This document shows, piece after piece, positions 36,739 through 60,845 of a DNA stretch of 64,000 bases. Where the stretch lies: positions 3,754-67,753 of the forward strand of contig CBEUCJ010000001.1 of NCBI GenBank assembly GCA_965541615.1, written 5' to 3'. The translations under genes were made by a program, and so were the position numbers. The notes under the pieces are model-generated. The model ran no database searches. It saw only the letters and a list, made by a program, of their open reading frames with translations, and had not been told where the DNA came from. The stretch comes from an uncultured bacterium (lineage in GTDB: Bacteria > Omnitrophota > Gorgyraeia > Duberdicusellales > CBEUCJ01). Each line of letters begins with the position of its first letter. Within the stretch, counting starts at the first letter, position 1.

Positions 36739-37970
36739 AACTTAAACTGAAAGACTTTTCAATAAAATATATATACTCAAAAAAAATATTCTTCTCTAAA
36801 AAAATCATAGTTGCTTTAGAAGGTTATGTTTGGAGAAGTAATTTCAAAAAACTCTCTCCTCAAGAAATAGTTAGGATTTACAAAAAAAGAAAAAAAGAGC
36901 TACTAGAGTTAGAAGGAAACTATTTAATCTGTATAGTAGACCTTAAAAATAAACTTTTAGAATTTTATTCAGATGTATGTGCAAGCATTCCTCTTTATTA
37001 TACAATAGATAAAAGTTGTTTAATTTGCTCTTCAAGAATAAAAACCCTTATCAGAAAAACAAAGACTAAAGTAAACAAAAGTGCTCTTTCTTTTTATGAT
37101 AAATTAAGCTACATACCTCCTCCTTATACTATCTTTGATAAGGTAAAAAAATTAAAACCGCATTATAACTATTTTGATTTTAAAAGATTATCCTTTATAA
37201 ATAGAGAATACAAAAGCAAAAAGATGAGTCTATCTACTTGTATAAAATCTTTACAAGAAAATATTAAAAATTATTGTAGTTATTATAAAAAAATTGGAGT
37301 TCTTGCAACAGGAGGTTTAGATTCAAGTTTTTTAATATATTTGGCAAAAGATTTTAAACCTCATCTTTTCTTTGCAGCTATTTTGGATAAATCTCTTAAA
37401 GAATATAATACTTATTCAATTAAAAGATGTAAAGCACTGGCAGATAAATTTAATTTAAAATTTGATGTTATCCCTATTAAGAAAGAAGAATATGTAAAAA
37501 GATTATTTTTAGTAGTAAAATTAATGGATGAACCAATTTATGATGAGGATTTGGCTGCTGTATATACTTTGTTTTATAAAATTAGTAAATTTTATAAAAG
37601 AGAAGGACTTATTTTAAGTGGTATGGGTAACAATGAATTGTTTGATTTTCCAAAAAGAAACTTGAAGGAGTTTTTATTCAAAAAGATACCTGAAGAAATA
37701 AATATACATAAAAAAATAGCTAAATCTTTTAATCTTGATTTTTATGCTCCTTATTTAAACAGAAATTTAATAAATTATGCGCTTACTACTGATTTTAAAA
37801 AAAGAAAAAATAAAAGATCTCTCAAAAGATTTTTAAAAATAAAGAAGATATTAAATTCTGAAATTGTAACTCAACCTTCTCAACACACACTGATTCCTCC
37901 AAATTTTATACCTTTATTGTTTAACAAAGATAGTTTTTTAAAATTTTGGAGGAGATACAATAATGCTTAA
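36729..37970 (+). CDS. Asparagine synthetase B-like PP-loop ATP pyrophosphatase lacking the N-terminal Cys nucleophile
   Basis: IGVLATGGLDSSFLIYLA is the SGGxDS PP-loop. The N-terminal ~190 aa resemble a class-II amidotransferase fold, but residue 2 is Glu (MELK...), not Cys. Confidence 0.6.
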   Translation: MELKLKLKDFSIKYIYSKKIFFSKKIIVALEGYVWRSNFKKLSPQEIVRIYKKRKKELLELEGNYLICIVDLKNKLLEFYSDVCASIPLYYTIDKSCLICSSRIKTLIRKTKTKVNKSALSFYDKLSYIPPPYTIFDKVKKLKPHYNYFDFKRLSFINREYKSKKMSLSTCIKSLQENIKNYCSYYKKIGVLATGGLDSSFLIYLAKDFKPHLFFAAILDKSLKEYNTYSIKRCKALADKFNLKFDVIPIKKEEYVKRLFLVVKLMDEPIYDEDLAAVYTLFYKISKFYKREGLILSGMGNNELFDFPKRNLKEFLFKKIPEEINIHKKIAKSFNLDFYAPYLNRNLINYALTTDFKKRKNKRSLKRFLKIKKILNSEIVTQPSQHTLIPPNFIPLLFNKDSFLKFWRRYNNA

Positions 37971-39030
37971 CAATGACAAGCTAAGAATCTTAGGGATAAT
38001 TAAGAACAAGGCTATCATAGGACCAAAGACTTTAGATATTCTGATAACTTCTCAATGCAATTTAAACTGTCTATTCTGCACAATACATTCTCCTTACAAT
38101 TCTGAAAAAATAAAAAAAGAACATCTTCCTTTTACTATCCTCAAAAAAGTAATAGATGATGCTTATAAACTGAAGGTAGAGAACATAACTTTAAGTGGAG
38201 ATGGAGAGCCTAGTTTACATCCTGAGATCTGTAAAATAATAGATTACATCAAGAAAAAAAAGTTTTTTCTTAATATAAATACAAACTTAGTATTCTCAAA
38301 AGACATCCTTAAATGTTTTCTCAAAGCAGATAAACTTTCTATAAACCTAAGTGCTTATGATGAGAAAACTTATTCTCATATTCATAGAGGGAATTCTTTA
38401 TCCTTTTCTCAACTTATTAATAACTTAAAAATAGCCTCTGAAATTTACAAAAAAAGGGGTAAACCTTCCATTGTAATAGTCTATGTAGTAAATAGCCTCA
38501 ATTATAAACACATATTAAAATTTGTGAAATTTATAAAAAACTTTCATATAAGCCACATAGACTTTAATCCTTTAGAAGTTAGACCATTTATTAAGAGATT
38601 TGCTTTATCCAAGAGAAAAATAATAAACTTTTGTAAATTAATCAATAAAGTTAAAAATGAAATTAATTTCTACAACAATCTCATTGAGCAAGAAGATCTT
38701 AGTATAAGTATAAATAAATGTTACATTCCTTTCTTTCATAGCAGAATAGAAGTAAATGGAACTGTTGCTTTTTGCTGCAAAAATGAGAATCTTATTATTG
38801 GCAACGTATATAAAGATAGCTTCTTAAACATTTGGAAATCTAAAAGAGCAGAGGAAATTAGAAAATCAGCTATATTTGAGTTTGATCTTTCTAAAAGAAA
38901 ATGGAAAGTATGTCAATCCTGTGAGAAGTATCTAAAAGAACGTAATCTCCTAATTCAAAAGGAAGTAGAATTTTTAATGAACAAATATGGAAAAAGCTTT
39001 ATTGAGATTAATTGGAATCAAAAAAGATAA
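37963..39030 (+). CDS. Radical SAM protein, family A (SPASM/twitch-like C-terminal Cys cluster)
   Basis: ILITSQCNLNCLFC CxxxCxxC at residues 31-38. C-terminal ...CYIPFF...GTVAFCCKNENLIIGN...CQSCEKY. Confidence 0.75.
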   Translation: MLNNDKLRILGIIKNKAIIGPKTLDILITSQCNLNCLFCTIHSPYNSEKIKKEHLPFTILKKVIDDAYKLKVENITLSGDGEPSLHPEICKIIDYIKKKKFFLNINTNLVFSKDILKCFLKADKLSINLSAYDEKTYSHIHRGNSLSFSQLINNLKIASEIYKKRGKPSIVIVYVVNSLNYKHILKFVKFIKNFHISHIDFNPLEVRPFIKRFALSKRKIINFCKLINKVKNEINFYNNLIEQEDLSISINKCYIPFFHSRIEVNGTVAFCCKNENLIIGNVYKDSFLNIWKSKRAEEIRKSAIFEFDLSKRKWKVCQSCEKYLKERNLLIQKEVEFLMNKYGKSFIEINWNQKR

Positions 39031-40012
39031 AGTTCTAACTGGCCCAGAAAGATTAGAAATTGAAATAATTAACTACTGCAACATAAATTGTCTTACTTGT
39101 TGGTTTTTTTCTCCCTTGGGTTCTTTTTATAAAGAAAAACCTTGGAAGATGGAACTGGAAGTATTTAAAAGAATAATTAATGAAGCTAAAATTTTAGGAG
39201 TGGAATCTATATGTATTCCTGGAATTGGAGAGCCTACCTTACATCCAAATCTTCCTGAAATGATATTAGAAACAAAAAAAGCAAGACTTCCTCTCCATAT
39301 AGCTACTAATCTGACTGTTACTTCTAAAAGAATCTTAAAATCTCTTTGCCTCTGCGATAGAATAGATATTACTTTATTAGCGCCTACAAAAGAGCTTTAT
39401 AAAGAATTGCAATCTCCTTCTTGCCCTGAATATTTTGACCAAGTATTGGAAAACATTACTTACTTAAAATCCTCTCAAAATCCTAACAAAAAACAGAAAA
39501 TATATATTATGTTTATATTAAATAAACTTAATTTTAAATATTTTAAAGATATACTAGAGTTAGCCAAAAAATTAAATTTAGATGGAATAGAAATACAACC
39601 TTTTGATACGACTCCTTTTAATAAAAATCTTTCTTTAGATTATTCAGAAATTAAAAGTTTTATTAAAGAAAAAAATAAGTTAAAGAAAAAGTATCCCTTT
39701 ATTGAAGATACTTTTTTTGAAGAATACTATAAAAATAAATTTGAGAATCAAAAACTTAAAAGATGTTATATGGGATACTTTACACTCTTAGTAGGAATAA
39801 AAGGTAAAGTAAAGGTAGGTTGCTTTTCTCCTCAATCTCCATCTGCAGGGAATATATATAAAAGAAGTCTTACTGAAATCTGGTATTCTCCTAAAGCACA
39901 AGAGATAAGAAATGAATATAAATATAACCTTGATAAAATTCATAAATCAGAATCTCATTGCCCTTTTTTGACAAGAAATCGTAAAATATCAAAAATAATT
40001 CAATTTTTTTAA
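38987..40012 (+). CDS. Radical SAM protein, family A (paralog)
   Basis: IEIINYCNINCLTC. Its N-terminal LLRLIGIKKDKVLTGPERLEIEI parallels LRILGIIKNKAIIGPKTLDILI of the upstream paralog. C-terminal Cys cluster is partly degenerate (GCFSPQ). Confidence 0.7.
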   Translation: MEKALLRLIGIKKDKVLTGPERLEIEIINYCNINCLTCWFFSPLGSFYKEKPWKMELEVFKRIINEAKILGVESICIPGIGEPTLHPNLPEMILETKKARLPLHIATNLTVTSKRILKSLCLCDRIDITLLAPTKELYKELQSPSCPEYFDQVLENITYLKSSQNPNKKQKIYIMFILNKLNFKYFKDILELAKKLNLDGIEIQPFDTTPFNKNLSLDYSEIKSFIKEKNKLKKKYPFIEDTFFEEYYKNKFENQKLKRCYMGYFTLLVGIKGKVKVGCFSPQSPSAGNIYKRSLTEIWYSPKAQEIRNEYKYNLDKIHKSESHCPFLTRNRKISKIIQFF

Positions 40013-41013
40013 GTTAATATGCTCTTTAGATGGATCTTTTTAAGGAAGTTTTGGAAGAAAATAGTCTCTTTAAAATCCAAATCTTTATCTACAAATTTTG
40101 AAATCATTTTAAATCCCCAAGATACATAATCTCTATAACTTAATGGAGTTTTTAAGGAATCAAAATATTCTCTGGTTTTTTTTATGAAAAAATAAAAAAT
40201 CTTCTCATTTACTTTAATGCGTCCATTATCGAGCTTAAGAAAAGACCATTTTTTTCGCATATTTTCTGACAAACACAAAAAGACATCTCCAAAAAAGACA
40301 TAAAAAGGAGGATGTAAACTTAAATCTAATAAATTTTTCTTTAGACAAGGAAAATCTTCTTCCATAAAGATATGTTTAAGAAACTTCTTATTCTTAACGA
40401 TCTTGATATATTCTTTTTTAAAACATTCTATGCTCTTAACATCCCACTCTATTAAGGCAGAGGGGGTAACATCTATATTCCTTAAACCTAAATTAATCAA
40501 AAAAGAAAAGTTCTCACTAAGCCTACAGCTTTCTTGAGGATGGACGGTCATTGTGCAAGAGATATCGATTCCTTTTTCTTTGCACTTCTTAATATTTTTT
40601 ATTAACTTCTCAAAGGAATCTCTATCTATTCCTCTCCTATGTTTAGAAGTAGTAAAAAAATCTCCATCTATTCCAATCTCTAAAGAGATTTTATTATCTT
40701 TCAAAAAGGAAATTATTTCCTCATTTAAAAGTAAACCATTAGTTTGAATTCCTATATTAATCTTAGGAAATTTTTTCTTTATATAATTTACTGTCTTTTT
40801 CACTAAAGGGAAAAAGAGAAATGGTTCTCCTCCACTAATCTCAAAATTACAAGGAGTAGCTAAATTAGTTTTTAAAAAGTCTATAAATCTTTTAATAGCA
40901 GAAAAATCTAAAGTTCTGCCTCTTTTGTCCTTAAAATAGCAATAATCACAATTCAAATTACATTTCTCAGTTATGTATATAAAAACATTATAAACAAACA
41001 GGTTATCGAACAT
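40009..41013 (-). CDS. Radical SAM protein, family B (no obvious C-terminal SPASM cluster)
   Basis: YITEKCNLNCDYCYF...ISGGEPFL. Paralogous to 51939..52988, which has ITEKCNLNCDYCFF...ISGGEPLL. Confidence 0.75.
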   Translation of the reverse strand: MFDNLFVYNVFIYITEKCNLNCDYCYFKDKRGRTLDFSAIKRFIDFLKTNLATPCNFEISGGEPFLFFPLVKKTVNYIKKKFPKINIGIQTNGLLLNEEIISFLKDNKISLEIGIDGDFFTTSKHRRGIDRDSFEKLIKNIKKCKEKGIDISCTMTVHPQESCRLSENFSFLINLGLRNIDVTPSALIEWDVKSIECFKKEYIKIVKNKKFLKHIFMEEDFPCLKKNLLDLSLHPPFYVFFGDVFLCLSENMRKKWSFLKLDNGRIKVNEKIFYFFIKKTREYFDSLKTPLSYRDYVSWGFKMISKFVDKDLDFKETIFFQNFLKKIHLKSILT

Positions 41014-42184
41014 TCTTTCTCAAATCAATAATGTGTCTAAATTTTCCTGTAGAAGTTTTTGGCACAGAACCTTTATAAATATTAAATTCAAATATGTCCA
41101 AAATCCTCAGTCTTTCAGAAATGGCTTTTTTTATCTTTTCAATTTTATCTTTATCAGAAGGAGAAAGATTTATCAAAACCTTATCTTTATAAGTGTAAGG
41201 ATTTTTATTTATCAGAAGGAAAAAATGAGGATGTTTTAAAATGCCTTGAATAGTCTCTATTATCTCCTGTTTAGAAAAAACTTCTCCATCAAGAAGAATA
41301 GAATCATCTGCTCTTCCTAAAACTTTTATATATTTTCTCCTACCCCTTTTTATTATCTCCACTATATCTCCTAAAATATATCTTATAAAAGGCATACAGA
41401 AATTTTCTAAATCAGTAATAACTATTTTCCCCTTTCCTAATTCAGAGACACTTCCATCGTCTTTTAAAATTTCTATATACAAACCATCTTCAAACAGTCT
41501 CATATATTCATCTTCAGGATCATCAGAAATAGCAAATCCTGAGAATTCCATAGATCCGTAATTATTAAATATCTCTACACCTCCTATTTTACATATAATC
41601 TCTTTAAAATCATTGGATAAATACTCACCAGTAACGATGCATTTTTTTATACTATGTTTTTTACCAATTCTGCTAAATACCTCATATATCTCATTCACAT
41701 AACCTTCAATAACTGTAGGATGTAAATCCTGAATAACTTTAATAACAAAATGTAAATGTTGTCTTGTTTTAATCGAACCTACAGGAATTCGACAAACACC
41801 TATCTTCCCTAAAGCCTCATCGATTATTCGTGCTGCTCCACTTATAGAATAAGATAACAAATTTAAGAAACGATCTTTTTTACTGAGACCGGCAGTCTTG
41901 TATATTTTTACTTGTCTTTTTATGTGTGCATCAAAACTTTTTTTGTTTCGGAGAATGAAAAAAGAATTAGTTGTACTCCCTGAAGTCATAGTAACAAAGT
42001 ATTCTTTCCCACTTCTTAAAAATTGAGAAATATCATTAAAATCCTCTCGTTTTAAAAAAGGAATATCTTCGATTTTTTTTATTTTAGAAACATCTACCCC
42101 TTTTTTTTGATGATAAAACTCTCTAAAATTTTTAAGTAGAGTTTTAATCTTTGAAAAAATTTTACTATTGTAATCATAGGACAT
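41003..42184 (-). CDS. PaaK/CapK/F390-synthetase-like adenylate-forming ligase
   Basis: VTMTSGSTTNSFFILRNKKSF carries the T-S-G-S-T P-loop of acyl-adenylating enzymes. The layout is the ~390-aa short-form adenylating ligase. Confidence 0.65.
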   Translation of the reverse strand: MSYDYNSKIFSKIKTLLKNFREFYHQKKGVDVSKIKKIEDIPFLKREDFNDISQFLRSGKEYFVTMTSGSTTNSFFILRNKKSFDAHIKRQVKIYKTAGLSKKDRFLNLLSYSISGAARIIDEALGKIGVCRIPVGSIKTRQHLHFVIKVIQDLHPTVIEGYVNEIYEVFSRIGKKHSIKKCIVTGEYLSNDFKEIICKIGGVEIFNNYGSMEFSGFAISDDPEDEYMRLFEDGLYIEILKDDGSVSELGKGKIVITDLENFCMPFIRYILGDIVEIIKRGRRKYIKVLGRADDSILLDGEVFSKQEIIETIQGILKHPHFFLLINKNPYTYKDKVLINLSPSDKDKIEKIKKAISERLRILDIFEFNIYKGSVPKTSTGKFRHIIDLRKNVR

Positions 42185-43145
42185 AATTTAAAGCTCCCAT
42201 CGTAGATAAACATCCCTTGCAACCATGATAATTAATTTTCTTTATCATTTTAATACGGTTCTTAGTAAATTCATCCCAATTAAAATTCTCAATATTCCCT
42301 AAAGGAGCTGCATGCGGACAAGAATAAATCTCTCCTGTTGCTCTTATAAAGATTAACTTCGAAGGAGTGCAGCATTTTTTTGCTATCTCTTTTTTAACCT
42401 GTCCATTAGATAAATATTCATATAATACTTTTAGCTGATTAATGTTGCAGATAGGTTGTTTATCTTCAAATATTTTTTCTATCTCTTCTTTACATATTTC
42501 TTTCCAATTAGGATCTTTCTCTTTAATATTTATTTTTGAGTTATAATGATAGTAAGAAGGAGTATTCTCTGAAAATATTTCAAACTCAACATTACAACCA
42601 ATTTTTTTAGAAAGTGTATAAACAGAATAAATATCAGAAGCATTAAAAGGATTTATAACAAAATTAACAGTTGTATCTATTCCTCTTTTAACTAAAATTC
42701 TAATCGTTTCTAACACTTTCCAAAAAACTGGTTTACCCCGTAAGTAATTATGCGTACTTTCTAATCCATCTAGACTTACATTGAATGACATTCTTTCTAA
42801 GAATTCATCTGATAAAGAATATACAAATCTTTTAACCTGCAAAGGTAATGTTCCATTAGTAGTTATATTAAAATGTTTTATTTTGCCTCGCAAAATGTAG
42901 AGATAAAGAGATTTAAAAAAATTATTTAATAATTCCTCTTTAATAAATGGCTCTCCACCTGTAATACCAAGACAAGAAATACACTGTAAATTTTGAAGTA
43001 TAAGAGAAATAACTTTGTATAACTTTAAAAGATTAATATCTTTTTCCTTCTCTTTCCAAATATTACACAATTTACATTGCAAATTGCATTTATTAGTTAG
43101 CATTACTAAAACCCAAGGTTCAAATATACTATTTTTTCCGTGCAT
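42174..43145 (-). CDS. Radical SAM protein, family C (SPASM-like C-terminus)
   Basis: MLTNKCNLQCKLCNIWKEKEK...ITGGEPF; C-terminal CCTPSKLIFIRATGEIYSCPH...CKGC. Paralogous to 49915..50865 (ITNQCNLRCKICSIWKEKEK). Confidence 0.75.
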   Translation of the reverse strand: MHGKNSIFEPWVLVMLTNKCNLQCKLCNIWKEKEKDINLLKLYKVISLILQNLQCISCLGITGGEPFIKEELLNNFFKSLYLYILRGKIKHFNITTNGTLPLQVKRFVYSLSDEFLERMSFNVSLDGLESTHNYLRGKPVFWKVLETIRILVKRGIDTTVNFVINPFNASDIYSVYTLSKKIGCNVEFEIFSENTPSYYHYNSKINIKEKDPNWKEICKEEIEKIFEDKQPICNINQLKVLYEYLSNGQVKKEIAKKCCTPSKLIFIRATGEIYSCPHAAPLGNIENFNWDEFTKNRIKMIKKINYHGCKGCLSTMGALNYVL

Positions 43146-44244: not shown

Positions 44245-44260
44245 ATCTATAATTTCATAT

Positions 44261-45112
44261 CTATAATTTTATGTTTAAGTTTATTTGAATTAATCTTTCA
44301 TCTTTTATGACATAAGAAAACCATCCAATGTTTAAATAAAAATTATATTCACATTTACAATAAGAATTTAATATTTCAATCAAAGATTTTTTCCATTTTA
44401 TATCCTCTAAAAATATTCTAAAGATGTCAGCACATCTAACAATAGGTTTATCTACCATCCAGCCTATCTGTTCAAAAACTTCGTTTGAACACTCTACAAT
44501 ATAAGACTGTTCTCCTCGAAAAGGTTTTGCTTTAACTTTTTCAAATAAAGAAAAGAAATCTTTTCTTAAAATTTTAGAAATAAAATAATCTTCTCTTAAG
44601 TTAAAAGAAAAAGTTACTTTTTTAACCTTCTTGTTATTGCAACAGAATCCTATCATATAGTAATTATCTTCATCTAAAAAATGCACAATTCTTTTCATTT
44701 TCTTTATTATTATACGGCAATCTATTTTAAATTCTTTCTTAATGCAAGAAATAATCTTAGGGATTAAATCTACCTTATTGTTTTTAAATTCTAAATAAAA
44801 TTCATCAATTACTGTCTTTTCATTAATGCCTACTATAAAAATATCTACTAAATGTAAATAATAAGATAACAATTTTTTCAAAAACACTGCTTCAGGGAAT
44901 AAAAGTATATCTTCAGGAGAATATAAATCAAACCAGAGAGTAACAGTATCTTTATAATTATCTGATCTAATTATTAAGGTAATATCAGGGACATATTTTT
45001 TGTTCTCAAGAAGATTTTTAAAAATATATTTTTTTATCTTAGCAGGATAATTTTTAATTAGAGAATTGTATAATATTATCTTTCTAATCTTATCTTTCTT
45101 TTGAATATCCAT
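44261..45112 (-). CDS. Hypothetical protein
   Basis: 283-aa ORF in operon context with no assignable motif. Confidence 0.4.
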   Translation of the reverse strand: MDIQKKDKIRKIILYNSLIKNYPAKIKKYIFKNLLENKKYVPDITLIIRSDNYKDTVTLWFDLYSPEDILLFPEAVFLKKLLSYYLHLVDIFIVGINEKTVIDEFYLEFKNNKVDLIPKIISCIKKEFKIDCRIIIKKMKRIVHFLDEDNYYMIGFCCNNKKVKKVTFSFNLREDYFISKILRKDFFSLFEKVKAKPFRGEQSYIVECSNEVFEQIGWMVDKPIVRCADIFRIFLEDIKWKKSLIEILNSYCKCEYNFYLNIGWFSYVIKDERLIQINLNIKL

Positions 45113-45180
45113 TTTGTCTTTGCTACTTTTTTACATTCTTTTCTTATTCTCTAAAAATCTTTTCTTTTTAAAACAATTTA

Positions 45181-46383: not shown

Positions 46384-46406
46384 CTAAGACTCAAAATAAA
46401 ATTACT

Positions 46407-47615
46407 TTATTTTAATAAATCTTTGTCAAGAAAAGATAAAAACTCTTTTAAAAATAATTCTTCATCACAAAACCATTCTTTGTTTATACTTACAGCTTTT
46501 TCACTCATTGAATAGATTAAACTTTTTTCTATCTCTTTTTTTAACTTCAAAGGTGTAAGCAAAAAATAATCTAAAACACTTACTCCCATAATATCTCTAA
46601 GTAATTTTGCTCTTGCTATTTGTTCTTTATAGTCTCCGTTTTTTTTATATCCTTTAAAAGGGATTAATATGGCTCTCTTTTTAAAATATATAATAGCAAC
46701 ACAAGTATTATAAGAGCCTGTAGATATACACACATGAGATTCTCTGAGCAAATCTTTTAGATTAGATGCGTATTTTACTAAAGAAGCATTTTTAACAACC
46801 TTTTTACTAAATAAACTGCAAAAATACCTCCACTCTTTTTGAGAAGTAGAAGGACCTGCTACGATTATAAAATGAAATTTCTCATTTAACAAATCACTTG
46901 CTTTTATAGCGCACGAAATTATTTTAGGATAATAAGCACCTCCTCCCCTAGTAACTAACACTTTGATCTTATTTTGTTTGAAATTTAATTTAACAGGCTC
47001 TTTAAATTTTAACTTTGAGGGGAGTAGATACCCTGTAAACACAATTTTATGAGAGTACTTTTCAAATATATTTAAATATTTTTCTCTTTCAATTTTATTC
47101 TTATAAAGTTCAGAAATATAAAACATCTCTTCTTTGGGAGAGTGAATGAAAATTTTCTTATAAAAATGAACAAAAGTCTCAAAATCAGCAATAGATTTTT
47201 TAGAAATAACAGGGTATCCTGCACTAGAGAATATCGGTTTCCCTTTTTTCTTAAAATCAGATAAAACAGGTAACAACTCATATTTACATAGATTTCTTCC
47301 TAAAGGAAAAAACTCAGTAATAAATACAGAAAAATCAAATTTTTTCATAAGATTAAAAAGGAAGATAGCTCTTTTTAATAATACCTCTTTATTTATTTCA
47401 TAGTTTCCATAAAAAGATCGACGAGTAAATAGAGAAAATGGAAGAGGAAGAATTTTAACATACGAAGGAAACCTTAAATAAGAATGTGGTAGACTTGCTT
47501 GGATAAAATAAAAATCACTTGAAATCCTTTTTTTTAATACTCTTAATAGGGATAGTAATCTACTTGTGTGTCCTAAACACTCATAATGAGCATAATAAAA
47601 ACCTATTCTACCCAA
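46407..47615 (-). CDS. PseG/SpsG/MurG-like GT-B fold enzyme (paralog)
   Basis: MGRIGFYYAHYECLGHTSR; same architecture as 45181..46383, with ...TGSYNT near the C-term. Confidence 0.5.
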   Translation of the reverse strand: MGRIGFYYAHYECLGHTSRLLSLLRVLKKRISSDFYFIQASLPHSYLRFPSYVKILPLPFSLFTRRSFYGNYEINKEVLLKRAIFLFNLMKKFDFSVFITEFFPLGRNLCKYELLPVLSDFKKKGKPIFSSAGYPVISKKSIADFETFVHFYKKIFIHSPKEEMFYISELYKNKIEREKYLNIFEKYSHKIVFTGYLLPSKLKFKEPVKLNFKQNKIKVLVTRGGGAYYPKIISCAIKASDLLNEKFHFIIVAGPSTSQKEWRYFCSLFSKKVVKNASLVKYASNLKDLLRESHVCISTGSYNTCVAIIYFKKRAILIPFKGYKKNGDYKEQIARAKLLRDIMGVSVLDYFLLTPLKLKKEIEKSLIYSMSEKAVSINKEWFCDEELFLKEFLSFLDKDLLK

Positions 47616-47832
47616 AAGAATCTATCAGAAATTTTTTAATAAAATCTCTCTCCTTTTTACCCTTCCTTAGAACTACAACTACTTTTCTTTCTCATTTTTC
47701 TAAACCATTGTATCTCTCAAGATGAGAATCGTCAACATTGAGAGTTGTAAGACTAACAGTCAAATGCAACTTGAAAAAATTAAAGAACTTGAATTCGCTA
47801 ATCATTAAATTAAAATGGTAACAGGAATAATT

Positions 47833-48870
47833 ATGAAAAATAAACTCATATTAGACATTTTGCAAAATAAAGTAAATTATGGACCACAAATAGCAAATAT
47901 CTATATCAATTCTCAATGTAATTTGAAATGTGAATACTGCTGGTTTCATTCTTTTCTTAATAAAAAAAAGATGCCAAATAGAATTATTCCTTTTTCAGCT
48001 ATTCAGAAAAATATAAATGAACTAAAAGAATTAGGAACAAAATACATAGTATTAAGCTCTCATGGCGAACCATGGCTTCATCCTCAGATTCAGAGTATAA
48101 TATCCTATATAAAAAATCAAGGACTTTATTTAAGAATAACCACTAATCTTACTTTTAAAGAGAAAAAATTACGCTTACTCTTTGCCCGAGCAGATTTTTT
48201 AGCTGTAAACTTTTCTGCTCCTGAAAAAGAATTATATAAAAAAATTCATTCCCCCTCTAATTCTTCTACTTTTGAAACAGTAGTAGAAAATCTTAGTCTC
48301 TATTCTAGTTTGTATAGAAAAAGGAAAAAACCCTTTGTAGAAGTAAGGTATATAATTACCAAAAATAATTACAGGTATATAGACAAGATGCTTAAATTAG
48401 CCAAAAAATTAAGAATACCTCAAATAAGATTCAGAATTTTTGATCCTACTCCTTCTACAAGAACCCTTCTTTTAAGTAAAGAAGACTACTTATCTTTAAA
48501 AAATATGATTAAAAGAATTCTTAAAAAATATTCTAATTGCAAAACCAATTTAGAAAAACTTTATGAACATATTGGAAATGAAGGAAAGGTAAACTTCCAA
48601 CTCAATAGATGCTTTGTAGGATGGTTAAGAATCTCTTTAGAGTTAAATGGAAAGATTGGTTTTTGCTGTCAAAATGATAAACTTATAATTGGAAATTGGA
48701 AAAAAGACTCTATAAAAAAAGCTTGGTTTAGTGACATTGCAAATAAATTAAGGAAAAAATTAAAATACGATTTTAATTTCAAAAAAAGAGAATGGAAAAA
48801 TTGTCTTTTTTGTTTCATGGAAGAAGAAAATCTTTATATAGATTCAATATTAAAAAAATTTGGTGAATGA
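47833..48870 (+). CDS. Radical SAM protein, family A (paralog)
   Basis: IYINSQCNLKCEYC; C-terminal CFVGWL...GKIGFCCQNDKLIIGN...CLFC. I prefer the start at the internal ATG 47833 (MKNKLILDIL) because AGGAA sits 6 nt upstream and the N-termini of the other paralogs match it. The ORF track start is 47815. Confidence 0.7.
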   Translation: MKNKLILDILQNKVNYGPQIANIYINSQCNLKCEYCWFHSFLNKKKMPNRIIPFSAIQKNINELKELGTKYIVLSSHGEPWLHPQIQSIISYIKNQGLYLRITTNLTFKEKKLRLLFARADFLAVNFSAPEKELYKKIHSPSNSSTFETVVENLSLYSSLYRKRKKPFVEVRYIITKNNYRYIDKMLKLAKKLRIPQIRFRIFDPTPSTRTLLLSKEDYLSLKNMIKRILKKYSNCKTNLEKLYEHIGNEGKVNFQLNRCFVGWLRISLELNGKIGFCCQNDKLIIGNWKKDSIKKAWFSDIANKLRKKLKYDFNFKKREWKNCLFCFMEEENLYIDSILKKFGE

Positions 48871-49946
48871 ATTTATTAGACCAATTAAGAATAATCAGTA
48901 TCCATAAAGATAAATTACTGGTTGGTCCAAAATCTATATATATAGATATAAATACAGAATGCAATCTAAATTGTAACTTTTGTTGGATACATTCTCCTTT
49001 AAATAAAAAACCTCTTTATAAAAAACCTCTTTTACTTAGTTTTGAAGATATTAAAAAAATTATAGACAAAGCTTATGAATGGCGCTGTGAAGAGTTAATT
49101 ATCTCTGGAGATGGAGAACCTACACTCCATCCTGAATTTAAAGAAATAGTAAGATACATAATCAAAAAAAATTTCAGAGTATTTCTCACTACAAACGCTA
49201 CCTTTAACAAAGAATTACTAAACTCAATATTGAATATAGATTATCTTTACATTACTTTTTCTGCTCCCCAAAAAGATTTATATTTCAAAATTCAATCACC
49301 TAAAAATCCTTATATGTATGAAAAGGTATTGAGAAATATCAAAATATTAAGCAAATTTAAAGAAAAATATAAAAGACCTTATCTAAATATAGCTTTCATT
49401 ATAAATAAAACTAATTATAAAACCATTCCAGATATGCTTAAATTAGGAGAAAAATTAAAAATAGACAAAATAACTTTCAGAATTATGGAAACTACCCCTT
49501 ATACAAAGAAACTCTCTCTCAGTAAGCAAGAAAAACAAGAGTTAATAAAAATAATAACAAAAACATTAAAATATAAAACAAATCTCATCCATAATTTAAA
49601 AGAAATAAAAGAGGGGATTTTAAAATACAATAAGAGTCCTTTCAAATTAAAAAGCTGTTTTACTGGATGGTTTAACCTATTCATAGATTTTAATAAAAAT
49701 GTGGGATTGTGCTGCCACAATGAAAAGTTAATAGTTGGGAATTTAAAAAAGAAATCTTTAGAAGAAATATGGAAAAGTAAATTAGCCCATAAGAAAAGAT
49801 TAATGTGTAAGTATGAATTTAATTTAAAAAAAGAACCTTTTAAAGGGGAATGTCAATGGTGCCATTGGTATAGAGAAAATAGAGAAATTATGGAAAAGTT
49901 ACAAAATCTTCAAAATGATAGAAGAATTAAAAGAAATAACTTTTGA
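48867..49946 (+). CDS. Radical SAM protein, family A (paralog)
   Basis: IDINTECNLNCNFC; C-terminal CFTGWF...VGLCCHNEKLIVGN...CQWCHWY. Confidence 0.75.
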   Translation: MNLLDQLRIISIHKDKLLVGPKSIYIDINTECNLNCNFCWIHSPLNKKPLYKKPLLLSFEDIKKIIDKAYEWRCEELIISGDGEPTLHPEFKEIVRYIIKKNFRVFLTTNATFNKELLNSILNIDYLYITFSAPQKDLYFKIQSPKNPYMYEKVLRNIKILSKFKEKYKRPYLNIAFIINKTNYKTIPDMLKLGEKLKIDKITFRIMETTPYTKKLSLSKQEKQELIKIITKTLKYKTNLIHNLKEIKEGILKYNKSPFKLKSCFTGWFNLFIDFNKNVGLCCHNEKLIVGNLKKKSLEEIWKSKLAHKKRLMCKYEFNLKKEPFKGECQWCHWYRENREIMEKLQNLQNDRRIKRNNF

Positions 49947-50865
49947 GATAACTAACCAATGTAACTTAAGATGTAAAATCTGCAGTATATGGAAAGAGAA
50001 AGAAAAAAGAATCTTGCATCTTGACCAAATAAAAAAAGTCTTAGAATCTATTCATAATCCTGTAACAGTATCTTTAACAGGTGGAGAACCTTTTCTGCAT
50101 CCACAAATAAATCAAATATACAGGTATCTATTCAAACTCTTCCTCAAAAAAAAGGTAAAAAACATAGATATTTCCACTAATGGATACTCAACAAAAATAC
50201 TTCAATTCATAAAGATTAATCAAAATTACCTTCAACCTTTATCTTTCTCAATAAGCTTAGATGGAGTTAAAGAAACCCACGATCTTCAAAGAGGCAAAAA
50301 GGGTGCTTTTGAAAATACATTGAAAAACATCTTAGATATAAAAAAATACAACATTCCCATAACTTTAAAATTTGTAATTTCTAAAATAAATTATCGTGAC
50401 TTAATGAAGATATATAAGTTATCAAAAAAAATAAATATACCTTTAGCAGTAAAACTCGTAGAAAGAGTTCCTAATTATTACCATCGTAGCGAAAAAAGAA
50501 AAAAAATTTTGTGGAATAAAAAAGAAATTGAGTTCATAAAAAAAACTTTTGAAGATATTTTAAAAGATTTAAAAAATATAAGAAATAAATTTTTAATCTT
50601 TGTTTTTTTGAACATAAAACACTTCATAGAAGAAAACAATCTTAATTTTATAAAAAGATGTTTAACCCCCAAATATTCTTTATTCATTACTTCTTACGGA
50701 AAAATATACAATTGTCTTTATCAGGAAAGTATAGGAAATATCAAAGACTGGCCAAATTTAAAATGGGAAAAAGCTCACAAAATTTCAAAAAATGCACTTA
50801 AAGGGATCTGCCCTAAGTGCCTTTCTTACCACGGATATTTAAAAGAGTTTAATGTCAAGCATTAA
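49915..50865 (+). CDS. Radical SAM protein, family C (paralog)
   Basis: ITNQCNLRCKICSIWKEKEK...LTGGEPFLHP; C-terminal CLTPKYSLFITSYGKIYNC...CPKC. Confidence 0.75.
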   Translation: MIEELKEITFEITNQCNLRCKICSIWKEKEKRILHLDQIKKVLESIHNPVTVSLTGGEPFLHPQINQIYRYLFKLFLKKKVKNIDISTNGYSTKILQFIKINQNYLQPLSFSISLDGVKETHDLQRGKKGAFENTLKNILDIKKYNIPITLKFVISKINYRDLMKIYKLSKKINIPLAVKLVERVPNYYHRSEKRKKILWNKKEIEFIKKTFEDILKDLKNIRNKFLIFVFLNIKHFIEENNLNFIKRCLTPKYSLFITSYGKIYNCLYQESIGNIKDWPNLKWEKAHKISKNALKGICPKCLSYHGYLKEFNVKH

Positions 50866-51955
50866 AAAATGCAATTATACTTTCTATGATATATTCTGCC
50901 TCTTGCTCTTTCATAAATGAAAATAAAGGTAGATGTATTGCTTTATGATAGTATCTTTCACTGTTAGGAAACTTCCCCTTAGAAAATCTTTTGAAAATAG
51001 ACATCAAATGCAAAGGACAATAAGGCTCCTGCCAAATGATTCCTTTTTCTTTTAAGTACTTACCTAAACTATCTCTTTCCTTAGAAAAAATTACAAAATT
51101 TTGAGGAACAGAAACACTATCTTTTCTATCTTTAAAGATTTTTATACTTTTAATTTTCCCTAATCTCTCTTCATATATTTTTTTTATCTTTAAACGTGAT
51201 TTTATTATTTCCTTCAAATATTTAAATTTAACTTTAATAGAAATCAAATCCAAAAAATACATACGTGAAAATCTTTTTCCAGCATTAAGTAAAACTTCAT
51301 CGTCTTTCCAGATTCTTGTATAATCAAGCAATTTTTTATATCTCTCATTGTTGAAACAAACCATCCCCCCTCCCCCTCCACAACTTGAAAGGGGTTTATA
51401 ATAAGAAAATGAAAAACATGAAATATCTCCAAAAGAACCTAATTTTTTACCTTTATATTCTGAGCTCTCTGCTTGGCAACAATCCTCAATCACATATAAG
51501 TTGTATTCTTTGGCAATCTCTAAAATCTTTTCAATGTTACATGGTCTTGCAAACATATGGACTGCAATGATTGCTTTTGTATTTTTTTTAATATTTTTTT
51601 TGATTAAATTCTCATCTATCTCTAAATCTTCTTCTTTTATATCTACAAAAATAGGCTCTGCTCCTGTATAAATCACACTCAAAGGAACAGCTGGATAAGT
51701 TACATTAGGAAGAATAACACTATCACCTTTGCCTATCCCTAAGGTGAGTAAGCTTAAACACAGAGCATCTGTTCCTGAATTGACTGCAATAGCATATTTT
51801 GTGCCGATATATTTAGCAAAAGTAATCTCAAATTCTTTTAAAAGAAGCTCTATATCATTAATTCCTCTGATTTTTTTTAAATCTTTCTCTAATTGTTGCT
51901 GATACTCTTTGATAAGGGCTCGATCTATTCTATTATCTTCATATCTTATTACCAT
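50855..51955 (-). CDS. DegT/DnrJ/EryC1/StrS family PLP-dependent aminotransferase (paralog)
   Basis: AIAVNSGTDALCLSLLTLGIGKGDSVILPNVTY...VHMFARP...VIEDCCQAESSEYKGKKLGSFGDISCFSFSYYKPLSSCGGGGG. Confidence 0.8.
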   Translation of the reverse strand: MVIRYEDNRIDRALIKEYQQQLEKDLKKIRGINDIELLLKEFEITFAKYIGTKYAIAVNSGTDALCLSLLTLGIGKGDSVILPNVTYPAVPLSVIYTGAEPIFVDIKEEDLEIDENLIKKNIKKNTKAIIAVHMFARPCNIEKILEIAKEYNLYVIEDCCQAESSEYKGKKLGSFGDISCFSFSYYKPLSSCGGGGGMVCFNNERYKKLLDYTRIWKDDEVLLNAGKRFSRMYFLDLISIKVKFKYLKEIIKSRLKIKKIYEERLGKIKSIKIFKDRKDSVSVPQNFVIFSKERDSLGKYLKEKGIIWQEPYCPLHLMSIFKRFSKGKFPNSERYYHKAIHLPLFSFMKEQEAEYIIESIIAFFNA

Positions 51956-52988
51956 TGTTTTTACAAAAAAATAAATCTAATTTCTGAATCTCCTCACATA
52001 AATTTTGATAAACTTTAAATCTCTTCTCTAAATGAGCATCCTTACTTTTATTTAAAATAAGTCCAGCATTAAAATTGCTAAATTCTCTGTAACTTTTCTT
52101 TTCTTTGAAGAAAAATTTAATTTTCTCAAGATACTCTTTAAGATTCTTCTCAAAAATATAGATTTCTTTATTTGTCAATTTCATTATAAAAAAATCTTTC
52201 TGTAGTTCATAAGGGAAAGGTAAATAAGTCCAATTAGGAAGGACAAATCCATCTGGCCTTATAACCAAATCTAAAAAGAAATCGATTTTAAAACTATAGT
52301 CTTTACATACCAAATATTTATGCTCATTTTTTTCATATTCAAGGATTCTAACATATTGCTTAATAAATTCAGAAGCTTCTTTTTCCTTCCACTCTGCTAA
52401 AAAAGCTGGATGGACCTCTATAGCACTTAACCCCAGGGAAACTAATTCTCTAAAATTATTAAACATATACTTTGTCTCCTGAGGATGAACAGTCATTGTA
52501 GGAGTTAAAGTTAATTTATATTTTATCAGTAATTCTAAATTTTTTATACATTTATTAAAGCTTTCTCTATCAAGACCTTTTCTATGTCTAAAATTAGTCA
52601 AGAAACCTCCGTCTATACCTGGTTCTATAATCACATTATTCTCTTTTAAAAATTTTATTTTTTGAACACTCAAAAAATATAAATTTGTCTGTAAAGTAAT
52701 TTTGCTCTCTGAATGATAAATACGAACGTATTCTATTAAATCTTTCACAAAATTCCAACATAATAAAGGTTCTCCTCCAGAGATTACGAAATCATAATTT
52801 TTATTCGCAGGTAACATTCTTAATAAAGATAGTGCCTGTGAAAACTTAAGATTCTTTTTCCCTTCTCTTTTAAAAAAACAGTAATCACAATTTAAATTAC
52901 ATTTTTCTGTAATAAAGAGCCAAATGTTTCCTATTTTGAGTTTTTTAAAAATCTGATCGTTTTCTAAAATTTTTAAGACACCTTTCAT
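51939..52988 (-). CDS. Radical SAM protein, family B (paralog)
   Basis: ITEKCNLNCDYCFFKREGKKN...ISGGEPLL. Confidence 0.75.
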   Translation of the reverse strand: MKGVLKILENDQIFKKLKIGNIWLFITEKCNLNCDYCFFKREGKKNLKFSQALSLLRMLPANKNYDFVISGGEPLLCWNFVKDLIEYVRIYHSESKITLQTNLYFLSVQKIKFLKENNVIIEPGIDGGFLTNFRHRKGLDRESFNKCIKNLELLIKYKLTLTPTMTVHPQETKYMFNNFRELVSLGLSAIEVHPAFLAEWKEKEASEFIKQYVRILEYEKNEHKYLVCKDYSFKIDFFLDLVIRPDGFVLPNWTYLPFPYELQKDFFIMKLTNKEIYIFEKNLKEYLEKIKFFFKEKKSYREFSNFNAGLILNKSKDAHLEKRFKVYQNLCEEIQKLDLFFCKNNGNKI

Positions 52989-60838: not shown

Positions 60839-60845
60839 TAATAAA

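What the first reader, a model, noticed from the sequence alone, without database searches (positions are those of the whole stretch)
37963..52988. Modular segmental duplication: rSAM families A, B, C and DegT occur twice in rearranged order
Family A has four members: 37963, 38987, 47833 and 48867. They share the N-terminal L..L.I..K....GP..L.I.I...CNLNC.FC block and the C-terminal C(F/Y).G...G.V..CC.N..L.(I/V)GN block. Family B has two members, 40009(-) and 51939(-), both with ITEKCNLNCDYC(Y/F)F...ISGGEP. Family C has two members, 42174(-) and 49915(+), both with CNL.CK.C.IWKEKEK. Each B/C pair sits next to a DegT paralog (43129 and 50855). Module 1 is A-A | B-ligase-C-DegT. Module 2 is A-A-C | DegT-B. 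This suggests an ancient duplication followed by inversion. The two copies may now build two related but distinct modified units.
Basis: seen in the sequence. Interest (0 to 1): 0.6.

Follow-up and report, generated by a model that had tools for sequence, protein, structure and literature searches.

The report
Old enzyme paralogs in one rearranged gene cluster
The repeated radical-SAM and aminotransferase genes are real but ancient paralogs that belong to a single conserved, uncharacterised biosynthetic locus of uncultured Omnitrophota bacteria, and this genome has reshuffled that locus rather than copied a block of it.

Summary
All-against-all BLASTP gives full-length matches within each family. 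The A family scores 32-40% identity, B 35%, C 34% and DegT 41%, with E-values from 1e-41 to 1e-87. Matches between different radical-SAM (rSAM) families never exceed 66 bits.

The window comes from a Candidatus Omnitrophota genome. Other Omnitrophota MAGs carry one-to-one orthologs of both copies of each pair. In two of them the genes of both "modules" sit in one co-directional operon:
- GT1-B2-D2-ThrED-X-D1-C1-ligase-B1
- GT-B2-DegT-C1-ligase-B1

So every split predates these lineages. The two modules share no gene order. The window layout is that single operon interrupted by the universally linked A-C2 unit, with the glycosyltransferases moved. An en bloc duplication at the very base cannot be excluded, but nothing supports it.

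My best guess at function has low confidence. I read the locus as an anaerobic pathway that tailors an amino sugar or glycoconjugate:
- twitch-type rSAM enzymes
- two Lys-bearing DegT transaminases
- a PaaK-like ligase
- an AsnS-like enzyme
- a kinase
- GT28 transferases

The locus is repeatedly linked to an HxsA/HxsB/HxsD set that lacks an intact HxsC. Interest is moderate.

The parts
36007..36738 (+). K: APH/choline-kinase-like small kinase
   Evidence: Pfam Fructosamin_kin and APH hits. Kinase homologs sit in the cluster in L001, L013, L098 and L099.
36729..37970 (+). Asparagine-synthase-like amidotransferase/adenylating enzyme
   Evidence: Pfam Asn_synthase 46.5 bits. It is adjacent to A2-type or A1-A2 genes in L097, L098, L013 and L100.
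37963..39030 (+). A1: rSAM with a twitch/SPASM-type C-terminal domain
   Evidence: Pfam Radical_SAM and SPASM above cut-off. Ortholog in L100 at 44% identity, clade bootstrap 83.
38987..40012 (+). A2: rSAM/SPASM paralog with a reduced set of C-terminal Cys
   Evidence: Pfam. Only 3 of the 5 family Cys are kept. The A2-type clade has bootstrap 74-89 and orthologs in 6 MAGs.
40009..41013 (-). B1: rSAM without conserved auxiliary-cluster cysteines
   Evidence: Pfam Radical_SAM 81 bits and no SPASM. Only the CX3CX2C Cys are conserved in family B. B1 clade bootstrap 94.
41003..42184 (-). PaaK-like adenylate-forming ligase
   Evidence: NCBIfam PaaK 72 bits, far below the cut-off. PDB phenylacetate-CoA ligases at 71 and 65 bits. 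It is always next to B1 in relatives.
42174..43145 (-). C1: rSAM with a 4-Cys twitch-like C-terminus
   Evidence: Pfam Radical_SAM. Four conserved C-terminal Cys. C1 clade bootstrap 98.
43129..44244 (-). D1: DegT-family PLP aminotransferase (accessory type)
   Evidence: Pfam DegT 233 bits. The Lys aligns to the QdtB active-site Lys. Own orthologs at 46-66% identity.
44261..45112 (-). X: protein with no family hit, always directly upstream of D1
   Evidence: No Pfam or NCBIfam family. The X-D1 pair is also present in L100 and L101. The structure model failed.
45181..46383 (-). GT1: GT28-like glycosyltransferase (core type)
   Evidence: Pfam Glyco_tran_28_C 42 bits. GT1 clade bootstrap 98. It is adjacent to B2 in L001, L097, L099, L100 and L031.
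46407..47615 (-). GT2: GT28-like glycosyltransferase paralog
   Evidence: Pfam 42 bits. It is 32% identical to GT1. GT2 clade bootstrap 98. In L100 it is co-directional with HxsB-HxsA-Y.
47815..48870 (+). A3: rSAM/SPASM, a lineage-restricted tandem copy (alternative start 47833)
   Evidence: Pfam. It groups with L001_8955 at bootstrap 99-100 and is also present in L015.
48867..49946 (+). A4: rSAM/SPASM, the core A type, always followed by C2
   Evidence: Pfam. Orthologs in every related locus that holds an A gene. AF2 model pLDDT 92, best PDB folds SuiB, DesII, BlsE and anSME.
49915..50865 (+). C2: rSAM with a 4-Cys twitch-like C-terminus (core type)
   Evidence: Pfam. A4-C2 adjacency in the window and 8 distinct relative loci. 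Also present in the minimal locus L031.
50855..51955 (-). D2: DegT-family PLP aminotransferase (core type)
   Evidence: Pfam DegT 261 bits. Best PDB hit 7b0d, Gln--scyllo-inositol transaminase, 199 bits, with the Lys aligned. Orthologs at 58-71% identity.
51939..52988 (-). B2: rSAM without auxiliary Cys (core type)
   Evidence: Pfam. B2-type monophyly bootstrap 90-92, including L031. It is adjacent to the DegT gene in most relatives.
53056..53919 (+). M: polytopic membrane protein, weakly Peptidase_A24-like
   Evidence: Pfam A24 24.6 bits, below the cut-off. The M-R pair is conserved in L097, L100, L016 and L031, and M alone is present in L001.
53877..55205 (+). R: rSAM with a 130-aa Cys-rich N-terminal extension
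   Evidence: Pfam. Orthologs at 40-63% identity, always paired with M.
55208..56020 (-). Y: Cys-rich protein with a hydrophobic N-terminus, no family
   Evidence: No family hit. Homologs in L100 (41%), L097 and L031.
56007..56300 (-). HxsA3-like His-Xaa-Ser repeat peptide
   Evidence: NCBIfam HxsA3 49.4 bits, below the cut-off of 65. HxS repeats and a conserved H-x-S-(x)-Y end.
56305..57690 (-). HxsB rSAM maturase
   Evidence: NCBIfam TIGR03978 398 bits, above the cut-off of 370.
57769..58097 (-). Remnant of an rSAM gene (HxsC position), about 110 codons with an in-frame stop
   Evidence: Two ORF fragments carry CX3CX2C and the next core motif. Weak HxsC4 and HxsC hits.
58310..58705 (-). HxsD-like protein
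   Evidence: NCBIfam TIGR03976 44 bits, below the cut-off of 50. Precomputed Pfam HxsD hit on the near-identical gene.
58706..59158 (-). Z: small protein with a hydrophobic N-terminus, no family
   Evidence: No family hit. Weak homologs flank the Hxs genes in L031.
59263..59988 (+). Polysaccharide-deacetylase/DUF2334-like protein
   Evidence: Precomputed Pfam hits on the near-identical gene. It lies next to the A genes in L001 and L098 and inside the cluster in L097, L031 and L101.

Best explanation
SHOWN. The region from about 36.0 to 60.0 kb is one conserved locus of Candidatus Omnitrophota. It is packed with paralogous enzyme genes:
- four A-type and two C-type twitch/SPASM rSAM enzymes
- two B-type rSAM enzymes without an auxiliary cluster
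- two DegT aminotransferases
- two GT28-like glycosyltransferases

Each paralog has its own ortholog in distant MAGs, so the duplications are older than those lineages. In relatives the genes of both "modules" form one operon, GT1-B2-D2-(ThrED)-X-D1-C1-ligase-B1.

INFERRED. The window layout is that operon after rearrangement. The universally linked, oppositely oriented A(3)-A4-C2 unit and the two GT genes now lie between B2-D2 and X-D1-C1-ligase-B1. A3 is a lineage-restricted tandem copy. One copy of each pair (A4, B2, C2, D2, GT1) is the slowly evolving core set, which is also found alone in the minimal locus L031. The other copy (A2/A1, B1, C1, D1, GT2) is a faster-evolving accessory set.

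INFERRED, LOW CONFIDENCE (function). The locus makes an acylated or amidated amino-sugar or aminocyclitol-type glycoconjugate under anoxic conditions. The proposed steps are:
1. Twitch-type rSAM enzymes oxidise or rearrange sugar or cyclitol carbons, as BtrN does.
2. The two Lys-bearing DegT enzymes transaminate the resulting keto groups.
3. The PaaK-like ligase and the AsnS-like enzyme form amide bonds.
4. The kinase phosphorylates.
5. The DUF2334 deacetylase unmasks an amine.
6. The GT28 enzymes transfer the unit to an acceptor at the membrane, where the M-R pair sits.

The paralogs would then act on successive, chemically similar positions of one product rather than in two separate pathways.
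For: Paralogy: with within-family against between-family scores.

Source organism and relatives.

Orthologs of both copies in one locus: L002, L005, L013, L014; L097-L099; L100, L101.

Single-operon layouts:
- L097 11760-18294(-).
- L100 5419-14231(+), with overlaps or gaps of 6 nt or less.

Clade bootstraps: B1 94, C1 98, D1 100, GT1 98, GT2 98, A2-type 74-89, A3+L001 99-100.

Minimal single-copy locus L031.

Rate asymmetry. Identity to L097 orthologs is 45-46% for A4, B2 and C2 but 38%, 39% and 30% for A2, B1 and C1. Identity to L100 orthologs is 71% for D2 against 57% for D1, and 56% for GT1 against 49% for GT2.

All genes are intact and under purifying selection against a strain 98.6-99.1% identical in DNA over the aligned blocks. 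Pooled pN/pS is 0.15.

Function:
- Pfam and NCBIfam assignments.
- Catalytic Lys retained in D1 and D2. Best solved relatives are Gln--scyllo-inositol transaminase, QdtB and the BtrR-type transaminases.
- Families A and C keep four C-terminal Cys at twitch-like spacing. The A profile aligns to BtrN over both the core and residues 169-243.
- A, B and C have no N-terminal peptide-recognition extension, because CX3CX2C begins at residue 16-35.
- Relatives swap in small-molecule tailoring genes: KS-ACP-KS, short-chain reductase, ApbA, B12-rSAM and U32.
- The BtrN reaction and the twitch definition come from PMC9012708.
Against: No rSAM family here reaches any curated equivalog cut-off. The A4 model matches peptide-modifying enzymes (SuiB, CteB, SkfB, anSME) about as well as sugar- or nucleotide-modifying ones (DesII, BlsE, viperin), with TM about 0.6. 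The substrate class is therefore open.

The locus is repeatedly adjacent to HxsA/HxsB/HxsD, and in L100 GT2 is co-directional with HxsB-HxsA-Y. This could mean that a peptide or protein is the substrate.

The trees are neighbour-joining trees on saturated distances with few taxa. Several deep nodes have low support, and the position of A1 is unresolved.

The direction of the rearrangement is inferred from only two operon-type relatives.

Differential loss from a fully duplicated ancestor cannot be separated from stepwise gain.
Confidence: 0.55

Rival explanations
1. One ancestral module (A-A, B, C, DegT) was duplicated en bloc and one copy was inverted. The two copies now run two parallel pathways that build two related units.
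For: Every family has two or more members. Paralog identities fall in a similar range, 32-41%. A single-copy version of B, C, DegT and GT exists in L031. For D1, the D2-type proteins are the nearest non-orthologous relatives.
Against: There is no shared gene order between the modules. Both copies are present in one operon in L097 and L100. L097 runs B1, C1, B2 and C2 with a single DegT in the 21 kb seen. The accessory genes have a nested distribution across MAGs. The ligase and X have no counterpart in module 2. DNA similarity is limited to short motif-coding patches.
Confidence: 0.12
2. The whole 24-kb region is an expanded HXS-type system. HXS is an rSAM-matured periplasmic effector system shown to be antiphage in E. 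coli. In this model the A, B, C and R rSAM enzymes mature the HxsA3-type HxS-repeat peptide and/or the Y and Z proteins, which have hydrophobic N-termini. The DegT and GT28 enzymes build and attach a sugar to it. The C-type enzymes may have replaced the decayed HxsC.
For: HxsB scores above its cut-off, and HxsA3-like and HxsD-like genes lie next to the cluster. The same neighbourhood is seen in L100, L031 and L016. In L100, HxsB-HxsA-Y-GT2 are co-directional and overlapping. HxsC is only a remnant here. HxsC is the second-best NCBIfam hit of C2 at 82.7 bits, and B hits HxsB at 62-86 bits. The function of HXS is described in PMC13128918.
Against: The matches of C to HxsC and of B to HxsB cover only the rSAM core, lie far below the cut-offs, and are no better than matches to other families. 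A, B and C lack N-terminal peptide-recognition extensions. L001, L002, L014, L097 and L099 show the cluster without Hxs genes in the 20 kb seen. PADLOC gives only weak generic pVip hits. DegT, ligase, kinase and KS-ACP genes are typical of small-molecule pathways.
Confidence: 0.18
3. There was no local duplication. The second copies were recruited independently by horizontal transfer from other rSAM, DegT and GT families.
For: The long branches of D1, C1 and A1. L031 is labelled Dehalococcoidia, which hints that the cluster moves between phyla.
Against: Within each family the paralogs are each other's best non-orthologous matches. For D1, D2-type proteins score 247-259 bits against 193 or less for the rest of a 5.8-billion-protein search. 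For A4, the word-indexed search falls from E 1e-70 for cluster proteins to 1e-11 for the next hit. Outside the cluster loci the best B and C matches are 74 bits or less.
Confidence: 0.08
4. The shared blocks are only generic rSAM motifs, so there is no real paralogy.
For: All these proteins share CX3CX2C and the GGEP motif.
Against: Alignments are full length, with E-values from 1e-41 to 1e-87. Within-family scores are 144-236 bits against 65.9 bits or less between families.
Confidence: 0.01

Closest known systems
BtrN / BtrS(BtrR) step of 2-deoxystreptamine biosynthesis (twitch-domain rSAM dehydrogenase plus DegT-family transaminase)
   Same: Small rSAM enzymes with one four-Cys C-terminal cluster domain sit next to DegT-family transaminases. 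The A profile aligns to BtrN over the core and over residues 169-243. D1 and D2 hit the BtrR-type 2-deoxy-scyllo-inosose transaminases at 112-136 bits and a Gln--scyllo-inositol transaminase at 151-199 bits. The reaction logic is anaerobic oxidation of a secondary alcohol followed by transamination (PMC9012708).
   Different: Sequence similarity to BtrN is weak, at 36 bits. BtrN is not among the 50 Foldseek matches listed. There is no 2-deoxy-scyllo-inosose synthase here. This locus has eight such rSAM genes, not one. The substrate is unknown.
Desosamine pathway DesI - DesII - DesV (two DegT paralogs flanking an rSAM lyase)
   Same: Two DegT paralogs and rSAM enzymes are encoded in one operon in L100 (B2-D2 ... 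D1-C1). DesII is among the top structural matches of the A4 model, with TM 0.64.
   Different: DesII is about 490 aa and belongs to another rSAM subfamily, with 12-14% identity in the structural alignments. The sequence hit of the A profile is marginal at 21 bits. No NDP-hexose 4,6-dehydratase or other deoxysugar gene was seen in the locus.
HXS antiphage system (HxsA, HxsB, HxsC, HxsD; PMC13128918)
   Same: HxsB scores above its curated cut-off. An HxS-repeat peptide and an HxsD-like protein are adjacent. This neighbourhood is conserved in four related loci.
   Different: HxsC is only a remnant of about 110 codons. HxsA is the short HxsA3 type and shows no detectable peptidoglycan-binding domain. 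It is embedded among at least 18 further conserved genes that are absent from the described four-gene system.
Hopanoid side-chain tailoring genes hpnH/hpnI/hpnJ/hpnK/hpnO (rSAM enzymes, glycosyltransferase, deacetylase, aminotransferase). I recall this comparison from general knowledge.
   Same: The enzyme classes are the same combination: rSAM, GT, deacetylase and aminotransferase. C2 hits HpnH at 63 bits.
   Different: All scores are far below the cut-offs (HpnH cut-off 225). The aminotransferase is of the DegT type, not the class-III HpnO type. No squalene-hopene cyclase was seen. This is a resemblance in logic only.

Membership tests
Segmental (en bloc) duplication within this genome | Paralog pairs significantly more similar than unrelated family members | tested here: met
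   Within-family scores are 144-259 bits against 65.9 bits or less between rSAM families. D1 scores 247-259 bits to D2-type proteins against 193 or less to other DegTs.
Segmental (en bloc) duplication within this genome | Collinear (or mirror-image) gene order between the two copies | tested here: not met
   The window orders are A1-A2|B1-Lig-C1-D1-X-GT1-GT2 and A3-A4-C2|D2-B2. No adjacency is shared apart from the A-A tandem.
Segmental (en bloc) duplication within this genome | Copies arose in this lineage, so that relatives carry one copy | tested here: not met
   One-to-one orthologs of both copies are present in L100, L097, L002, L014, L098 and L101. Clade bootstraps are 83-100 apart from the A2-type clade at 74.
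Segmental (en bloc) duplication within this genome | All duplication nodes of the same age | tested here: inconclusive
   Paralog identities are 32-41% and saturated. The nested presence pattern (B1 most widespread, then C1, then D1) suggests different ages, but loss cannot be excluded.
Radical SAM superfamily (PF04055) | CX3CX2C cluster motif and a Pfam score above the gathering cut-off | tested here: met
   All eight A, B and C proteins score 54-81 bits against a cut-off of 29.5. The motif lies at residues 16-35.
SPASM/twitch subfamily of rSAM | C-terminal Cys-rich domain binding one (twitch) or two (SPASM, seven Cys) auxiliary clusters | tested here: met
   Family A: Pfam SPASM 29-47 bits against a cut-off of 21.5. 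Only 4-5 Cys are present, which is twitch-like, and A2 keeps 3. Family C: four invariant Cys, although Pfam SPASM scores 18.8, below the cut-off. Family B: no conserved C-terminal Cys, so it is not a member.
DegT/DnrJ/EryC1/StrS aminotransferases | Pfam PF01041 above cut-off and the PLP-binding Lys retained | tested here: met
   D1 scores 233 bits and D2 261 bits against a cut-off of 19.8. The Lys in SFSYaK and SFSYyK aligns with the Lys of QdtB and 7b0d. No NCBIfam equivalog is reached (best 204 against 375 for D1, and 190 against 423 for D2).
HXS system (HxsABCD) | HxsB rSAM maturase | tested here: met
   TIGR03978 scores 398 bits against a cut-off of 370.
HXS system (HxsABCD) | HxsC rSAM maturase | tested here: not met
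   Only two ORF fragments remain (57769-58097), about 110 codons with an in-frame stop. C1 and C2 score 47 and 83 bits against a cut-off of 268.
HXS system (HxsABCD) | HxsA repeat protein and HxsD | tested here: inconclusive
   HxsA3 scores 49.4 against 65, and HxsD scores 44 against 50. Both are below their cut-offs. HxS repeats are visible, and a precomputed Pfam HxsD hit is recorded.
BtrN-type rSAM dehydrogenases | Sequence or structure membership and a 2-deoxy-scyllo-inosamine substrate | tested here: not met
   The A profile scores 36 bits to BtrN. BtrN is absent from the 50 Foldseek matches listed for the A4 model. The substrate cannot be tested with these tools. Only the working analogy is kept.
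Phenylacetate-CoA ligase PaaK (equivalog) | NCBIfam TIGR02155 score above cut-off | tested here: not met
   It scores 72 bits against a cut-off of 646. It is a PaaK-like adenylate-forming enzyme only.
GT28 (MurG-like) glycosyltransferases | Pfam Glyco_tran_28_C above cut-off | tested here: met
   GT1 scores 42.0 and GT2 42.3 bits against a cut-off of 22. MurG, PseG and MJ1255 equivalogs are not reached. GT1 has no PDB sequence match.

The most novel reading that the evidence does not exclude
The entire region from 36 to 60 kb, with ten intact rSAM genes, would be one functional system: an elaborated HXS-type periplasmic effector system that has lost canonical HxsC. In it, HxS-repeat peptides or the Cys-rich Y and Z proteins are matured by a battery of paralogous rSAM enzymes and decorated with a purpose-built amino sugar. 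The result would be a glycosylated, rSAM-crosslinked envelope effector, possibly antiphage, in ultra-small Omnitrophota.
Probability: 0.15. Interest if true: 0.8.

Novelty: new variant of a known kind. Interest (0 to 1): 0.45.

Why it matters
On its own the duplication is ordinary. Biosynthetic loci often carry old paralogs, and here they did not arise by a recent block copy.

What is worth keeping is the locus itself. It spans about 24 kb and is conserved, though shuffled, in at least ten distinct loci, almost all from uncultured Omnitrophota. It holds ten intact rSAM genes from families that reach no curated functional model. Two sugar-type transaminases, two GT28 transferases and a ligase sit with them. 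The locus is repeatedly linked to an HxsA/HxsB/HxsD set.

If the product is an envelope glycoconjugate, it would be a lineage marker made entirely by oxygen-independent radical chemistry. If the locus is tied to HXS, it would extend a newly described defence mechanism.

The series from a minimal locus (L031) to an expanded one (L100 and the window) also gives a natural experiment on how paralogous radical enzymes are added to a pathway.

Tried and rejected
1. Exact look-up of A4 in the contig index found nothing. The near-identical P0001 had to be used instead.

2. A 17-sequence A alignment was too diverse for the locus scan. The scan with a narrower alignment returned only a few true relatives among about 90 loci. 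Most hits were generic rSAM genes.

3. A Biopython bootstrap run timed out. I replaced it with my own numpy neighbour-joining code.

4. I first read the DegT tree as placing D1 with DegTs of other phyla. I rejected that reading. The tree is an unrooted three-clade tree and carries no information on the question, and the bit scores point the other way.

5. The count of 1091 A-like proteins at E<=1e-30 is inflated by multi-domain fusions that are only 22-35% identical to A1-A4. It does not measure the size of the A family proper.

The single-sequence model was unusable, with pLDDT 36.

7. A PDB search with the A4 C-terminal domain alone found nothing useful.

8. PADLOC gave only generic viperin-like rSAM hits.

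9. I computed pN/pS against the close strain instead.

10. The literature search on Omnitrophota and radical SAM found no description of this locus.

Full report
OBSERVATION

A3 starts at 47815.

All-against-all BLASTP gives full-length alignments within each family:
- A1-A4: 32-40% identity, E 4e-43 to 1e-78.
- B1/B2: 35%, E 9e-55.
- C1/C2: 34%, E 8e-41.
- D1/D2: 41%, E 4e-87.

Within-family rSAM scores are 144-236 bits. The 37 between-family pairs, which include two further rSAM genes of the window, reach at most 65.9 bits with a median of 38.

Three corrections apply.
- A2 lacks the CC doublet and half of the terminal CxxC.
- The two GT28-like genes at 45181-46383(-) and 46407-47615(-) form a fifth paralog pair at 32% identity, E 1.5e-34.
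- DNA-level similarity between the modules is confined to short motif-coding patches.

WHAT THE GENES ARE

Pfam and NCBIfam give the following:
- A is rSAM plus SPASM.
- B is rSAM only.
- C is rSAM plus a sub-threshold SPASM match.
- D1 and D2 are DegT-family aminotransferases.
- 41003-42184(-) is a PaaK-like ligase.
- 36729-37970 is asparagine-synthase-like.
- 36007-36738 is an APH-like kinase.
- 44261-45112(-), called X here, has no family.

None of the rSAM proteins reaches any curated equivalog. The exception is 56305-57690(-), which is HxsB at 398 bits against a cut-off of 370.

Families A and C keep four C-terminal Cys at twitch-like spacing. Family B keeps only the CX3CX2C Cys.

D1 and D2 keep the PLP lysine. 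Their best solved relatives are a Gln--scyllo-inositol transaminase, QdtB and the 2-deoxy-scyllo-inosose transaminases.

A confident AlphaFold model of A4 (pLDDT 92) matches SuiB, DesII, BlsE, anSME, SkfB and viperin about equally, with TM about 0.6. Family A is thus a distinct branch of the SPASM/twitch group with no close characterised member.

SOURCE AND RELATIVES

A4 homologs come from Candidatus Omnitrophota MAGs. A strain whose DNA is 98.6-99.1% identical over the aligned blocks carries the same genes in the same order. Pooled pN/pS over 23 genes is 0.15, so all paralogs are intact and constrained.

I collected eleven distinct related loci:
- L001
- L002
- L005, which is the same locus as L097
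- L013
- L014
- L015
- L016
- L098
- L099
- L100
- L101

I also collected the minimal locus L031. I assigned every ORF by BLASTP against the window proteins and built neighbour-joining trees with 300-500 bootstraps.

KEY RESULT

Both copies of each pair have their own orthologs elsewhere. L100 carries one-to-one orthologs at these identities:

| Gene | Identity |
|---|---|
| A1 | 44% |
| A2 | 56% |
| B1 | 52% |
| B2 | 56% |
| C1 | 52% |
| D1 | 57% |
| D2 | 71% |
| GT1 | 56% |
| GT2 | 49% |

X, the ligase, M, R, Y, HxsA and HxsB also have orthologs in L100.

L097 carries A2-, A4-, B1-, B2-, C1- and C2-type genes with one DegT and one GT.

Clade supports are B1 94, B2-type 90-92, C1 98, D1 100, GT1 98, GT2 98, A2-type 74-89 and A3+L001 99-100.

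D1 has its own orthologs at 46-66% identity. After those, D2-type proteins are its closest relatives, at 259 and 247 bits against 193 or less. I first read the DegT tree as separating D1 from D2. I withdrew that reading because an unrooted three-clade tree cannot show it.

GENE ORDER

In L100 the genes GT1-B2-D2-ThrED-X-D1-C1-ligase-B1 form one co-directional string with overlaps or gaps of 6 nt or less. In L097 the string is GT-B2-DegT-C1-ligase-B1.

A4-C2 are adjacent in the window and in eight distinct relative loci. In L015 two genes lie between them. A2-type genes pair with the AsnS-like gene. M-R lie next to a GT.

Read along the minus strand, the window is B2-D2-[A3-A4-C2 on the other strand]-GT2-GT1-X-D1-C1-ligase-B1. 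The two "modules" are therefore the two ends of one ancestral operon. The A-C2 unit and the relocated GT genes now lie between them. The modules themselves share no collinear order.

The accessory genes are nested in distribution. B1 with the ligase occurs in six or seven loci. C1 occurs in four. X with D1 occurs in three.

L031 holds only C2, D2, B2, GT1, M, R, the deacetylase, Y, HxsA, HxsB and HxsD.

The core-type copies are consistently more conserved than the accessory-type copies.

All this fits old duplications, probably stepwise, followed by shuffling. An en bloc event at the base of the lineage cannot be excluded, but no positive evidence supports it.

FUNCTION (INFERRED)

The enzyme set includes the following:
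- BtrN-like twitch rSAM enzymes without peptide-recognition extensions
- two Lys-bearing sugar or inosose transaminases
- an adenylating ligase
- an AsnS-like enzyme
- a kinase
- a DUF2334 deacetylase
- GT28 transferases

Relatives swap in variable tailoring genes: KS-ACP-KS, a short-chain reductase, ApbA, B12-rSAM and U32.

Together these point to an oxygen-independent pathway for an acylated or amidated amino-sugar or aminocyclitol glycoconjugate. The BtrN/BtrS logic of rSAM oxidation followed by transamination is the closest working analogy (PMC9012708).

The main rival comes from the neighbourhood. An HxsA3-like peptide, HxsB, an HxsD-like protein and a decayed HxsC lie beside the cluster here and in L100, L031 and L016. 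In L100, GT2 is in line with HxsB-HxsA-Y. HXS is a recently described antiphage system in which HxsB and HxsC mature a periplasmic HxS-repeat effector (PMC13128918). The rSAM battery could therefore act on a peptide or protein. Five related loci show no Hxs genes within the 20 kb seen, and PADLOC gives nothing specific.

VERDICT

The paralogy is real and well above chance. The reading as a segmental duplication followed by inversion is only partly right. The duplications are ancient and belong to the history of a conserved Omnitrophota locus, and the present layout is a rearranged single operon.

The locus itself is uncharacterised and unusually rich in radical enzymes. That, together with its link to Hxs genes, is what merits follow-up. 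Interest is moderate at 0.45. I rate the novelty as a new variant of a known kind.

Noticed in passing
window 39935-40125; L095 11973-15142: A closely related strain (99.1% and 98.6% DNA identity over the two aligned blocks) carries an extra 2.8 kb between A2 and B1, holding a weakly DUF483-like gene and a second APH/choline-kinase-like gene. The insert is flanked by a 191-bp direct repeat that is single-copy in the window. This is an indel polymorphism, probably produced by recombination between the repeats.
   Followed up: partly
window 57769-58097 (-): A remnant of an rSAM gene lies in the position where HxsC is expected. It consists of two fragments of 61 and 41 codons in one frame, separated by a stop, followed directly by HxsB. 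The near-identical strain has the same state.
   Followed up: partly
window 56007-56300 (-); L100 967-1263; L016 13739-14286; L031 about 14100-14440 (-): These are short HxsA3-type peptides with a basic N-terminus, one hydrophobic segment and C-terminal His-Xaa-Ser repeats. All of them end in H-x-S-(x)-Y. L016 has two in tandem.
   Followed up: partly
proteins P0168-P0170, P0174, P0176, P0183, P0185 (not in the window): Distant relatives of family A, 22-35% identical, occur as proteins of 790-1950 aa that carry two to four rSAM-SPASM domains in tandem. Some have an N-terminal B12-binding domain. Stacking of paralogous rSAM units is therefore recurrent in this group.
   Followed up: partly
L031 (Ga0208325_1000130), 3890-5008: The minimal single-copy version of the cluster lies on a contig of 37.6% GC. 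Its DegT is 100% identical to TRZ51845.1, which is labelled 'MAG: Dehalococcoidia bacterium'. Either the cluster exists outside Omnitrophota or that bin is contaminated.
   Followed up: partly
window 60462-63841: From their translations these ORFs look like rpmH, yidD, yidC, parA and parB in a row (not family-searched). If so, the locus lies close to the chromosomal replication origin region.
   Followed up: no
window 53056-55205: The gene for a weakly prepilin-peptidase-like (A24) membrane protein overlaps by 43 nt the gene for an rSAM enzyme with a 130-aa Cys-rich N-terminal extension. The pair is conserved in L097, L100, L016 and L031, and its role is unknown.
   Followed up: partly
window 32297-35961: An NfeD-like gene, an SPFH/Band-7 gene and a DUF3352 gene lie directly upstream of the cluster. 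They are conserved in the close strain and appear unrelated to the finding.
   Followed up: no
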